Source of the DNA: Octopus sinensis
Taxonomy: Eukaryota
DNA: 8,971 nucleotides
Direction: 5' to 3'
Assembly (NCBI RefSeq): GCF_006345805.1
Contig: NW_021828163.1
Location: forward strand, 1-8,971
Shown: piece after piece, positions 829 to 8,971 of the stretch
Numbering within the stretch: position 1 is the stretch's first letter
Layout of the letters: each line of letters begins with the position of its first letter
Position numbers and translations under genes: made by a program
The notes under the pieces: generated by a model
Database searches by the model: none
Told to the model about the DNA's origin: nothing
Seen by the model: the letters and a program-made list of their open reading frames with translations, nothing else

Positions 829-911
829 TGGTACTTCGTCGGTTACGACGACGAGTGTTCCAGTTGATCCGATCAACGGAACAGCCAGCTCGGGAAATTA
901 ACAGACAAGTA

Positions 912-1262
912 TACCTATTTCTTTACTACCCACAAGGGGCTAAACACAGAGAGGACAAACAAGGACAAACAAACGGATTAAGTCGATTATATCGACCCCA
1001 GTGTGTAACTGGAACTTATTCAATAAGTACCAGTTACGCACTGGGGTCGATATAATCGACTTAATCCTTTGTCTGTCCTTGTTTGTCCTCTCTGGGTTTA
1101 GCCCCTTGTGGGTAGTAAAGAAATAGGTACTTATTTAATCGACCCCGAAAGGATGAAAGGCAAAGTCGACCTCGGCGGAATTTGAACTCAGAACGTAGCG
1201 GCGGACGAAATACCGCTGAGCATTTCGCCCGGCGTGCTAACGATTCTACCAGCTAGCCACCC
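912..1262 (-). mobile_element. SINE-A copy 1 (tRNA-derived), carrying an antisense nested copy
   Basis: It matches the copy at 2853-3082 in two pieces (912-1020 and 1126-1262). B-box gagttcaaattcc lies on the minus strand. Imperfect TSD: ttaacagacaagtatacc (898-915) and ttaacagacacgtgtacc (1264-1281). Confidence 0.9.
1022..1129 (+). mobile_element. 5'-truncated SINE-A inserted antisense inside copy 1
   Basis: This is the reverse complement of 912-1020 with about 5 differences. It is flanked by the candidate TSD ggaacttattcaat (1011-1024) / ggtacttatttaat (1126-1139). Confidence 0.8.
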
Positions 1263-2852: not shown

Positions 2853-3082
2853 TATTTCTTTACTACCTACGAGGGGCTAAACACAGAGAGGACAAACAAG
2901 GACAGACAAACGGATTAAGTCGATTAGATCGACCCAGTGCGTAACTGGTACTTATTTAATCGACCCCAAAAGGATGAAAGGCAAAGTCGACCTCGGCGGA
3001 ATTTGAACTCAGAACGCAGCGGCGGACGAAATACCGCAAAGCATTTCGCCCGGCGTGCTAAAGTTTCTGCCAGCTCGCCGCC
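2853..3082 (-). mobile_element. SINE-A copy 2, full length (~230 bp)
   Basis: Minus strand: ggcggcgagctggcagaaactttagc (A-box-like), gagttcaaattcc (B-box), central gcctttcatcc...ggggtcgat...aagtacc, tail ending gtaaagaaata. TSD aaagacgtacg (2842-2852) / aaagatgtacg (3085-3095). Confidence 0.92.
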
Positions 3083-3289: not shown

Positions 3290-3671
3290 GGCGGTGAGCT
3301 GGCAGAACGTTAGCATGCCGGGAGAAATGCGTAGCCGTATTTCGTCTGCCGCTACGTTCTGAGTTCAAATTACGCCGAGGTCGACTTTGCCTTTCATCAT
3401 TTCGGGGTCGATATAATCGACGTAATCCGTTTGTCTTTCCTTGTTTGTCCTCTCTGTGTTTAGCCCCTTGTGGATAGTAAAGAAATAGGTATTTCGTCTG
3501 CCGCTACGTTCTGAGTTCAAATTACGCCGAGGTCGACTTTGCCTTTCATCATTTCGGGGTCGATAAATTAAGTACAATTTACACACTGGGGTCGATATAA
3601 TCGACGTAATCCGTTTGTCTTTCCTTGTTTGTCCTCTCTGTGTTTAGCTCCTTGTGGGTAGTAAAGAAATA
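3290..3671 (+). mobile_element. SINE-A copy 3, partial tandem dimer
   Basis: Unit 1 spans 3290-3490. Unit 2 spans ~3489-3671 and restarts at gtatttcgtctgcc. One TSD surrounds both: atcttcattcagaaaa (3274-3289) / atctacattcagaaaa (3673-3688). Confidence 0.92.
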
Positions 3672-3716: not shown

Positions 3717-3923
3717 TTATGACGTCCCACTCCCGCACCTCTCATTGTCCCTCAGCTCATCTCTACCGTCCTTGAATCTCTTACGCCAATGAAAAACAGA
3801 TGCTTGACTCATACAACTTAATTCATAAGAAGTCTGGTACATTTCATAACTTTCTATGGCGAGTTTATCGCAAAACTTTATTGCATAGCTAGCTTTCAAA
3901 TTGTCTTCAAGTCCTGAGTGCAT
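3717..3923 (-). pseudogene. Mariner transposase N-terminal HTH remnant
   Basis: Provided ORF. It ends at a frameshift, and homology continues in another frame. Confidence 0.85.
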
Positions 3924-4677: not shown

Positions 4678-4857
4678 GACACGTACACTCACATACATAT
4701 ACACACACATACACACACGCACACAAATATATAGCAAAAAAAGATAGAGATAGATAGACAGACAGACAGACAGATAAACAAACAAGCTGACAGACAGGCG
4801 GACAGACAGACAAACAGTTGGACGGACGGACGGGCAAATGGACAGACAAACAGACAG
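4678..4857. repeat. Degenerate (CA)n/(GATA)n/(GACA)n/(GACG)n microsatellite abutting the LINE 3' end
   Basis: Directly visible. Confidence 0.9.
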
Positions 4858-5689
4858 ATTTCTTTGTTTAGCCACGCAGGGCCGAACACAGAGGGGACAA
4901 TCAATGTAGAATTTTTCTCTTCGAAACCGATAAATAAGTATCGAAAGACGTTTTTTGGGCGTGTGCACAAGTAGATGACAAGGTGTCGTTTTTAACATTG
5001 TAAATTCCCAATAGAGGGAGAAAATATAACCGTGGAGAGAAAATCCTACGAAAAAGAACCACAGTAACCTCGGAAAAAGGAAAGTTATATGAAAACAAAG
5101 TGCCCTCACTCTTTTTGTTTTATAGGTTAATGCTCAAAGTGGTTCAGTCTTTCATATGAACCATTTTGCTACATTCGCCCATCTTTTATTGAACCTTTCA
5201 TTAGACAAAACTACCCTCTCTACTCTTACCTTACCTTCCTTTTCAAGTAATATTTGAAAAATCGATGAGTGTTTAGCCAGAAAGGAAAGTATTAGTCTCT
5301 AAGCCTTTCAAGCGAGTCCACCATACATATTCTTTCGCCATAGTCACCAGTACAATGAAAACTGCCTTGCCTTTCCGGTTAAAGGAAAGTGGTGGAGCAA
5401 TATTTACGATAGACTCGACTGACAATCGGATTCGTCCCAGACGCGAGAGCAGCCATTTGACATAGGTCCACAGGTCTGAAATATGTGGACATTACACGAG
5501 TGCGTGCAGAACAGTTTAGTTGTTCTGACTGCATCTCGAGCAGATCGGTTCGTTGTTGATTGAACCGTTTCTGTAGACATTTTCTCGAACAGGCAATGCT
5601 CCCCGATAGCATTGCCAGGCCAGGGATCTCTGGAAATAGTCGATATGCCCTGGCCCGAAAGTGATCCGGGAGAGGTAGGTCAGGTATTT
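4858..5689 (-). mobile_element. 5'-truncated L1/Tx1-clade non-LTR retrotransposon (ORF2 C-terminus plus 3' UTR)
   Basis: A minus frame not in the ORF track reads FQRSLAWQCYRGALPVRENVYRNGSINNEPICSRCSQNN*TVLHALV*CPHISDLWTYV...MAKEYVWWTRLKG...ERFNKRWANVAK. This is a CCHC zf-RVT zinc knuckle with the typical C-terminal W..R and F..RW motifs. A ~290-nt 3' UTR follows, ending aaagaaat. Confidence 0.85.
5152..5689 (-). pseudogene. LINE ORF2 C-terminal (zf-RVT) remnant
   Basis: It has three in-frame stops, a 1-nt deletion near 5260 and a 5-nt duplication (gtaag) near 5230. Confidence 0.8.
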
Positions 5690-5813
5690 GATTAGATCGA
5701 AACCAGTACGCGACTGGTACTTAATTTATCGACCCCGAAAGGATGAAAGGCATGATGAAAGTCGAGCTCGGCGGAATTTGAACTCAAAATGTAAAGACAG
5801 ACGAAATACCGCC
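5690..5813 (-). mobile_element. SINE-A fragment (head and central domain, no tail), fused to the 5' end of the LINE
   Basis: It matches SINE-A from ggcggt/atttcgtc through the B-box and central domain to tcgatctaatc. It carries a small internal gatgaaa duplication. Confidence 0.85.
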
Positions 5814-7589: not shown

Positions 7590-7797
7590 GGCGGTGAGCT
7601 GGCAGAAACGTTAGCACACCGGGCGAAATGCTTAGCAGTATTTCATCTGCCGTTACGTTCTTTGCGTTTCATCCTTTCGTGGTCAATTAAATAAGTACCA
7701 GTTACGCACTGGGGTCGATATAATCGACTTAATCCGTGTGTCTGTTATCGTTTGTCCCTTCTGTGTTTAGCCCGTTGATGGTAGTAAAGAAATAGGT
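7590..7797 (+). mobile_element. SINE-A copy with the B-box deleted
   Basis: Perfect TSD aggttacagaa (7579-7589 / 7794-7804). It lacks gagttcaaattccgccgaggtcgact at ~7661. Confidence 0.92.
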
Positions 7798-8580: not shown

Positions 8581-8971
8581 GAATCCTTCAAATGGCTCTG
8601 TGAAAATTTCCTAGGCAACAAGAGATCTTCTAGGCTCCTATGCTGCAATGGGCTGTCGGATGTCACTAAAAGTCCATTTCCTCGATTCACACTAGGACTT
8701 TTTTGCTAGAACCTTAGAGCAGTGTCTGATGAGCAAGGTGAACGCTTTCATCAAGATATTGCATCGATGGAACAACGATATCAAGGATTTTGGAATGCAG
8801 CAATGTTAGCTGACTACTGTTGGGTGTTATACAGGGATGAACCTGAGACAAAACACCATAGAAAGTTCAAATCCCAAAGATTTTAAGTTTTTATGTATTT
8901 GAGTGTATTCTAACTTATTTGTACACAATAATTTAAATTTTGTACAATAAAAGCTATGAATGATCGTATCT
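8581..8971 (+). mobile_element. DNA transposon 3' part with a transposase C-terminal remnant (8581-8886), probably CMC/Chapaev3-like; likely continues past the window
   Basis: Peptides: ESFKWLCENFLGNKRS / LLGSYAAMGCRMSLKVHFLDSH*DFF / NLRAVSDEQGERFHQDIASMEQRYQGFWNAAMLADYCWVLYRD...*. The motif family is strongly recognisable. The Chapaev3 label is from recall. Confidence 0.75.

What the first reader, a model, noticed from the sequence alone, without database searches (positions are those of the whole stretch)
4858..4904. L1/Tx1-clade LINE shares its 3' terminus with the abundant SINE-A: candidate SINE/LINE partner pair
Seen: the LINE ends on the minus strand with ttgattgtcccctctgtgttcggccctgcgtggctaaacaaagaaat. 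SINE-A ends with ttgtttgtcctctctgtgtttagccccttgtgggtagt-aaagaaat. By hand alignment 36 of 47 positions are identical, and both can form a small gcc(c)..gg(g/c)t stem-loop before aaagaaat. Neither has a poly(A) tail. Known: 'stringent' LINEs (CR1, L2, RTE) recognise a 3' tail that partner SINEs borrow, while mammalian L1 relies on poly(A). Inference: this L1/Tx1-clade element is a stringent-type driver of the dominant SINE here, which is a less common pairing. The 11-18 bp TSDs of the SINE copies are compatible with this.
Basis: partly seen in the sequence, partly recalled or inferred. Interest (0 to 1): 0.72.

Follow-up and report, generated by a model that had tools for sequence, protein, structure and literature searches.

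The report
SINE borrows Tx1-family hairpin tail
A very abundant short jumping repeat (SINE) in this animal genome, likely an octopus's, ends in the same tail without poly(A), predicted to fold into a hairpin, as a whole group of L1/Tx1-type retrotransposons and likely borrows their copying enzyme, though probably from sister families rather than from the broken, microsatellite-associated copy in this window.

Summary
In detail: 36 of 47 bases match. The 47-mer is the true 3' end of an L1/Tx1-type LINE family (family A): 27 of 30 loci end there, without poly(A), so the SINE-stub idea fails. The tail belongs to a whole radiation: sister LINE families and ORF1-only elements end the same way, and 8 of 9 tail types have a hairpin with different but complementary stems (2.1 expected). 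Family A is a poor candidate for main driver. About 80% of its tails run into (TATC)n, against 0.11% of 34,876 exact SINE tails. Sister family B matches the SINE better (41 vs 36.5 of 47 bases). B/D-type elements sit at the same site inside the SINE head as 384 SINE copies; 0 of 7,427 family A tails do. No LINE with the complete SINE tail was found, so the exact driver is unidentified, and stringent recognition is inferred, not assayed. I found no such pair in print (7 searches); Repbase, Dfam and SINEBase were not available. The scan had already noted this on other DNA of this genome.

The parts
4858..4904 (-). 3' terminal 47 nt of the LINE (family A), homologous to the SINE tail
   Evidence: 36 of 47 identical to a SINE end; same end in 27 of 30 loci
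4861..4892 (-). predicted stem-loop: outer stem between the two conserved motifs, inner 4-bp hairpin at 4870-4883
   Evidence: RNA fold -10.6 kcal/mol, z -2.15; inner stem varies with compensation across families
4748..4857 (-). degenerate (CTGT/CTAT)n tract directly after the LINE end; family A trait (3' repeat and/or target)
   Evidence: TRF period 4; 2,940 of 3,683 plus-strand family A-type tails are followed by it
4905..5119 (-). rest of the LINE 3' UTR
   Evidence: aligns with other copies at 74-79%; lies after the ORF2 stop read
5120..5689 (-). broken C-terminal remnant of ORF2 (zf-RVT region) with stops and a frameshift; copy is 5'-truncated at 5689
   Evidence: 68% identical to ORF2 of a young family A copy, E 1e-57; other copies continue upstream
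5690..5812 (-). internal piece of the SINE abutting the 5' end of the LINE remnant
   Evidence: SINE body match; not LINE sequence in 29 other loci
3290..3670 (+). SINE dimer with two copies of the tail (ending 3486 and 3670), 11-bp target-site duplication
2854..3082 (-). SINE monomer with the tail, 11-bp target-site duplication with one mismatch
7590..7793 (+). SINE monomer with an internal deletion and the tail, 11-bp target-site duplication
917..1261 (.). cluster of SINE pieces in both orientations with two tails (917-962 minus, ending 1124 plus)

Best explanation
The SINE ends in a roughly 60-nt tail without poly(A) that is homologous to the 3' ends of a radiation of L1/Tx1-type LINEs in this genome, and a LINE protein likely binds the tail's predicted hairpin to copy SINE RNA into new sites, most likely the protein of the sister clade whose hairpin the SINE shares (families B/D/E or a lost relative) rather than that of the window's family A. 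Shown: homology, the shared end position, the families' gene content, junctions, target-site duplications and insertion sites. Inferred: (1) the tail came from a LINE; (2) ORF2 protein recognises the stem-loop and starts target-primed reverse transcription at or just behind its AAAGAAAT end, as stringent L2 elements do; (3) each family's endonuclease sets the landing site, (TATC)n for family A and other repeats, the SINE head included, for B/D; (4) family A moved at most a tiny minority of SINE copies. The window's copy is an old, dead, 5'-truncated family A insertion.
For: LINE end: 27 of 30 loci end in register, no poly(A). Near full-length 6.1-kb copies with ORF1 and endonuclease-RT-zf-RVT ORF2; best solved relative human L1 ORF2p, E 2e-50, vs R2 1e-15. 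Sister families found with zf-RVT share the end; RT identity of A to B/D/E/G only 61-65%. Hairpin of 4 bp or more just before the AATAAA motif in 8 of 9 tail types, with different stems; 2.1 expected, P about 4e-5. Mean identity to 30 SINE tails, last 47 nt: family B 41.2 and 39.8, window 36.5; last 26 nt: B 24.2, D 23.2, window 19.2. Junction: next base is A in 60 of 63 SINE ends and 19 of 30 family B ends. (TATC)n follows 2,940 of 3,683 family A-type tails but 39 distinct of 34,876 SINE tails. SINE-head site: 384 SINE tails, 2 of 30 family B tails, 23 D-type tails among the first 100 of 164 listed hits (one ORF2-bearing and six ORF1-bearing among the 30 loci read), 0 of 7,427 family A-type tails. 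Duplications: SINE 9-22 bp, sister LINEs 16-22 bp in 9 of 18 regions. Ages: SINE median 6.4% from its majority, window's subfamily 10.5%.
Against: No LINE with the complete SINE tail was found: three composite patterns gave 0 hits, and over 60 nt family C fits as well as B (48.4 vs 47.9), so the tail looks mosaic or ancestral. Families B and D are small (30 and 266 exact tails) and B is young (2.2%) against about 2 x 10^5 SINE tails (30 in a 400-kb sample). Most SINE copies land at scattered AT-rich sites, not at B/D targets; the head site holds only 1.1%, and those may be amplified dimers rather than separate insertions. The SINE hairpin is thermodynamically weak. The hairpin rule was set after seeing the data and the families are related, so its P value is optimistic. 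Only 150 of 24,042 zf-RVT candidates were scored and about 50 read, so families were missed. Age samples for the LINEs were picked by similarity. No assay.
Confidence: 0.68

Rival explanations
1. The window's own family (A) is the main driver of the SINE.
For: Family A-type tails are by far the most numerous LINE tails counted (7,427 exact), the family has old and young subfamilies (10.5% and 0.7%) that bracket the SINE's age, 24 of 33 apparent 5' truncation points lack a TATC flank, and 22 distinct SINE tails show the family A junction with CTATC directly after the end; six such loci read have TATC repeats on the 5' side too.
Against: About 80% of family A tails but 0.11% of SINE tails run into TATC repeats; the opposite orientation is as common in SINEs (34 distinct vs 39); worse tail match than family B; 0 of 7,427 at the SINE-head site; no convincing non-repeat duplication around 13 truncated family A copies, whereas SINEs usually have one.
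Confidence: 0.07
2. The tail is conserved for another job (3'-end formation or RNA stability: a hairpin next to an AATAAA motif); recognition is loose, and the SINE is copied by any of these LINEs or by a LINE of another clade, priming on short microhomologies.
For: AATAAA is the most conserved part of the alignment; SINE junctions often begin with bases that continue the SINE's own multimer sequence (8,578 tails are followed by an internal SINE restart); SINE sites are scattered; RTE, CR1 and Dong-R4 are active in octopus (PMC13282606, Table 1).
Against: No poly(A) follows the motif in any family read; the commonest SINE variant has changed AATAAA to AGTAAA but kept the hairpin; ORF1-only elements and a second SINE tail carry hairpins of the same geometry, as expected if non-autonomous elements need it; LINE and SINE share one insertion site.
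Confidence: 0.2
3. The 47-mer is an independent SINE stub that landed next to a LINE fragment.
For: SINE tails are very abundant, and a SINE piece does abut the other end of this LINE remnant (5690-5812).
Against: The same tail ends 27 of 30 loci, with LINE-specific sequence upstream and a LINE-type hairpin.
Confidence: 0.01

Closest known systems
Stringent SINE/LINE pairs with a shared 3' tail (UnaL2/UnaSINE, ZfL2-1/2; 58 pairs tabulated in PMC3747384 Table 1; mechanism in PMC4176376, passages read)
   Same: SINE and LINE end in a homologous tail with a stem-loop.
   Different: Animal pairs in that table use L2, CR1, RTE, Vingi, Crack, Rex1 or I LINEs, none L1/Tx1; here the tail has no terminal repeat in the SINE and is shared by many LINE families.
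L1-tailed SINEs of plants and algae: ZmSINE2/3 with LINE1-1_ZM, SINEX-3_CR with L1-1_CR (PMC3472496 part 1 of 3; PMC3747384 passages and table)
   Same: L1-clade LINE, about 50-nt shared end, hairpin with compensatory changes.
   Different: Those are plant or algal, and L1-1_CR and its SINE end in poly(A); this is an animal, with no poly(A) and target-biased families.
SINEU and Tx1-Mar of crocodilians (PMC4494074, parts 2-3 of 5 read)
   Same: A Tx1-type LINE as inferred driver of a SINE, argued from a shared insertion site; microsatellite-targeting Tx1 groups (Kibi, Koshi, TTCC/TTTC) parallel family A.
   Different: SINEU has snRNA heads and poly(A), and no LINE matched its 3' half; here the link is a shared 3' tail, and family A's repeat is TATC.
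HAL1-type ORF1-only non-autonomous LINEs (PMC5786205, passage)
   Same: ORF1-only elements of about 1.7-2.1 kb carry the same tail architecture.
   Different: They are Tx1-like, sit in tandem arrays, and one shares its hairpin with the SINE's second tail.
Octopus SINEs OK, OR1, OR2 (Ohshima and Okada 1994; not read, cited in PMC4758252 and PMC4824008)
   Same: Probably the same organism group and element class.
   Different: Sequences not available here; whether this SINE is one of them is untested.

Membership tests
L1 superclade LINE (L1/Tx1) | ORF2 with APE endonuclease, RT and C-terminal zinc-binding domain | tested here: met
   Pfam PF03372, PF00078, PF13966 on family A pieces and on intact ORF2s of B, D, E
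L1 superclade LINE (L1/Tx1) | RT closer to L1 than to other clades | tested here: met
   human L1 ORF2p E 2e-50 over 9-815, R2 1e-15; no CR1, L2 or RTE reference was in that library hit list
Tx1 clade | RT groups with named Tx1 elements in a tree | not testable with these tools
   no named Tx1 or L1 reference among homologues; the tree has none
Tx1 clade | ORF1 with a CCHC zinc knuckle (feature recalled) | tested here: met
   PF00098 over cut-off in families F and B, below cut-off (E 0.0015, 0.003) in A and D
Tx1 clade | target preference for repeats | tested here: met
   family A: TATC flank at 13 of 13 full-length 5' ends (two are probably one locus) and 9 of 33 apparent truncation points, background 0.5%; other families repeat their flanks
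Stringent SINE/LINE pair | homologous 3' ends in register | tested here: met
Stringent SINE/LINE pair | stem-loop with compensatory changes | tested here: met
   8 of 9 tail types, 2.1 expected; weak in single SINE copies
Stringent SINE/LINE pair | same 3' junction and insertion pattern, for SINE with family A | tested here: not met
   80% vs 0.11% TATC; 0 of 7,427 at the SINE-head site
Stringent SINE/LINE pair | same 3' junction and insertion pattern, for SINE with families B/D | tested here: inconclusive
   same junction type and one shared site, but most SINE sites are scattered
Stringent SINE/LINE pair | concurrent activity | tested here: inconclusive
   SINE 3-11% (median 6.4); A 10.5 and 0.7, B 2.2, C 5.3; LINE samples biased
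Stringent SINE/LINE pair | tail required for retrotransposition | not testable with these tools
   needs a cell assay
tRNA-derived SINE (SINE2) | tRNA-related head with A and B boxes | tested here: inconclusive
   ARAGORN 0 genes, no tRNA hit in Rfam to E 1; box-like motifs seen by eye against a recalled consensus
tRNA-derived SINE (SINE2) | short, non-coding, high copy, target-site duplications | tested here: met
   about 230 nt; 34,876 exact tails; duplications in 38 of 68

The most novel reading that the evidence does not exclude
The hairpin tail is a clade-wide tag read by shape, so one SINE is moved by several target-specific Tx1-type enzymes, each leaving its own junction: family A into (TATC)n (22 copies with its junction), B/D into the SINE's own head, and an unsampled or extinct relaxed-target family for the bulk. 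With a second SINE tail and ORF1-only elements using the same tag, this would be an animal L1-clade community built on stringent, poly(A)-free recognition.
Probability: 0.35. Interest if true: 0.72.

Novelty: new variant of a known kind. Interest (0 to 1): 0.52.

Why it matters
[quoted passage not shown] An animal L1/Tx1 radiation with a covarying, poly(A)-free hairpin, intact ORF2 copies and a SINE of about 2 x 10^5 tails would give natural stem variants with which to test how an L1-type protein recognises its RNA. It would also name the likely enzyme source for a SINE class that makes up 11.6% of an octopus genome (PMC13282606). The principle of tail borrowing itself is long known.

Tried and rejected
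Search for a LINE carrying the complete SINE tail: three composite patterns, 0 hits; a tail scan over all loci held showed none. Orientation test for family A moving the SINE: no excess of TATC over GATA orientation (39 vs 34 distinct), so the count alone does not show it. Duplications around 13 truncated family A copies: none convincing. Relatives in metagenome contigs: none. Named Tx1 references: none from homologue search, cluster look-up or the Atlas. tRNA detection in the SINE head: negative; Rfam hits in the window are microsatellite artefacts below threshold. Flanks of D-type tails could not be read beyond those, so the share of D-type copies at the SINE-head site is only a lower bound (23 of 266). 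Albertin 2015 was not held. SINE-stub explanation rejected. My first idea that the SINE's second tail came from RTE or R4 was dropped when it matched an ORF1-only Tx1-like element.

Full report
Observation. The 47-mer at 4858-4904 (minus) matches the SINE end at 36 of 47 positions, as stated, and two other window copies at 35 and 37. None of 2,000 shuffles of the 47-mer reached the observed score. The LINE piece runs from 5689 to 4858: a broken C-terminal ORF2 remnant, 68% identical to a young copy's ORF2, then a 3' UTR. Directly after the tail lies a (CTGT/CTAT)n tract. An internal SINE piece (5690-5812) abuts the 5' end; 29 other loci have LINE or unrelated sequence there.

Genome. The window is a whole contig of a 2.72-Gb genome with 30 large contigs. 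The closest named protein relative is from Argonauta hians (70%), so the animal is likely an octopus. This is inference.

Is the tail the LINE's own end? Yes. Of 30 loci from a search with the LINE piece (40 of 4,022 candidates scored), 27, the window included, end in this tail; the other three stop earlier. None has poly(A). Near full-length copies of about 6.1 kb carry ORF1 with a zinc knuckle and ORF2 with endonuclease, RT and zf-RVT. The best solved relative is human L1 ORF2p (E 2e-50; R2 1e-15). No named Tx1 reference was available, so 'Tx1' rests on the knuckle (a recalled feature) and on target preference. I call this family A. It is tied to TATC repeats: 2,940 of 3,683 plus-strand family A-type tails are followed by them (minus-strand counts are doubled by overlaps and were not used), as are 13 of 13 full-length 5' ends (two probably one locus) and 9 of 33 apparent truncation points, against 0.5% background. 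Some of the 33 are alignment breaks, and the repeat may be partly carried in the RNA.

The tail belongs to a radiation. A zf-RVT search (150 of 24,042 candidates scored) led to sister families B-H and J, several with intact ORF2s of 1,126-1,140 aa. All end near AATAAAGA without poly(A), with duplications of 16-22 bp in 9 of 18 regions. In an RT tree B, D, E and G form a clade (100/100) only 61-65% identical to A; family C was left out of the tree. An element of about 2.1 kb with ORF1 only (family I) has the same end. Just before the AATAAA motif, 8 of 9 tail types have a stem of at least 4 bp whose sequence differs by family (GCCC/GGGT, AGCC/GGCT, AGGC/GCCT, TCCT/AGGA, GATT/AATC and others); 2.1 are expected from shuffles, P about 4e-5. 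The nine were picked from 12 representatives by merging those with one stem; family H has none. The rule was set after seeing the data, so P is optimistic. Several tails also fold into a longer stem that pairs the two conserved motifs (z -1.0 to -2.4 in seven LINE tails, positive in two).

The SINE. An exact 50-nt pattern finds 34,876 tails; a 400-kb unselected sample holds 30, about 2 x 10^5 per genome. All 30 loci read have SINE sequence upstream. 8,578 tails are internal joints of multimers. Terminal tails are followed by A in 60 of 63 cases and by a duplication of 9-22 bp in 38 of 68. The head's tRNA origin was not confirmed by tools. A second tail type of the same SINE shares its hairpin with family I.

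Which LINE drives it? Not mainly family A. Only 39 distinct SINE tails (47 hits, 8 overlaps) run into CTAT repeats, 0.11%, and the opposite orientation is about as common (34 distinct). Family B matches better: 41.2 and 39.8 vs 36.5 of the last 47 nt, 24.2 vs 19.2 of the last 26. Following a lead from earlier scan notes, I tested one site in the SINE head: 384 SINE tails, 2 of 30 family B tails and at least 23 of 266 D-type tails sit there, and 0 of 7,427 family A-type tails. The window's subfamily (10.5% from its majority; this copy 11.6%) is older than most SINE copies (median 6.4%), though young family A copies exist (0.7%). For family A as a minor driver: 22 SINE tails have its exact junction, and the six such loci read have TATC repeats on the 5' side; this is suggestive only.

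Against a clean answer. No LINE with the whole SINE tail was found. Its upstream half matches family C and its hairpin B/E; over 60 nt C and B tie. B and D are small and B is young, while most SINE copies lie at scattered AT-rich sites. The head-site SINEs may be amplified dimers. The SINE hairpin is weak in single copies. The donor may be extinct or unsampled.

Mechanism. Shown: homology, ends, gene content, junctions, sites. Inferred from stringent L2 elements, whose ORF2 binds a 3' stem-loop (PMC4176376, passages): the LINE protein binds the hairpin, nicks a family-specific target and reverse transcribes from the tail's end; the SINE borrows this by carrying the tail. I put 0.68 on this with a B/D/E-clade or lost relative as main driver, 0.2 on loose recognition with another role for the tail, 0.07 on family A.

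Literature. Searches. Read: PMC3747384 (passages, Table 1), PMC3472496 (part 1 of 3), PMC4494074 (parts 2-3 of 5), PMC13282606 (parts 1-2 of 3), and passages of PMC4758252, PMC4824008, PMC5786205, PMC4176376, PMC11481361 and PMC8967140. L1-tailed SINEs were 3 of 58, all plant or algal; crocodilian SINEU is linked to Tx1 by shared targets and poly(A), not by a tail; the bivalve survey has no occurrence of 'Tx1' in its main text; the octopus papers list L1-Tx1 and SINEs without pairing them in the parts read. I saw no supplements, and Repbase, Dfam, SINEBase and the 1994 and 2005 Ohshima and Okada papers were not available, so an earlier description cannot be excluded.

Verdict. A real shared tail and a new variant of a known kind: right at the level of the clade, wrong for this LINE as the main partner. 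The scan reported the same system from other windows of this genome; those notes are not independent support. Interest 0.52.

Noticed in passing
window 5690-5812 (minus): [quoted passage not shown] No duplication was found around the pair.
   Followed up: partly
L101 2228-2391 (+), G000:C15: The 3' end of a Tx1-like LINE sits directly before a complete U1 snRNA gene (Rfam 125 bits); one case, possibly a U1-targeting or chance insertion.
   Followed up: partly
L247-L283 (family I): ORF1-only element of about 2.1 kb, often 5'-truncated, 13-18 bp duplications, whose hairpin is the one in the SINE's second tail.
   Followed up: partly
L335, L346-L348, L355-L357; G000:C5 48.43 Mb: Head-to-tail arrays of 1.7-kb ORF1-bearing elements, one mixed with a family D LINE, inside the SINE head.
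   Followed up: partly
G000:C3 72.50 Mb, C9 102.24 Mb, C9 76.61 Mb and others: Tandem arrays of LINEs at about 5.4-5.7 kb (and 3.6 kb) spacing, and families with identical 3' flanks in many copies (L102-L109, L141/L142/L148, L143/L154), suggesting several distinct fixed targets.
   Followed up: no
L362-L370, G000:C1 30.02 Mb: A SINE multimer of at least nine 185-nt units.
   Followed up: no
window 912-1261: SINE pieces in inverted arrangement (917-1024 minus, 1018-1124 plus, 1126-1261 minus).
   Followed up: no
window 829-910, 1267-1632, 2369-2508: Other interspersed repeats with many matches in the unselected sample; not classified.
   Followed up: no
window 3717-3923 (minus) and 8719-8883 (+): Short frames that look like DNA-transposase remnants by recall; Pfam gave only a weak helix-turn-helix hit (E 0.096) for the first and nothing for the second.
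   Followed up: partly
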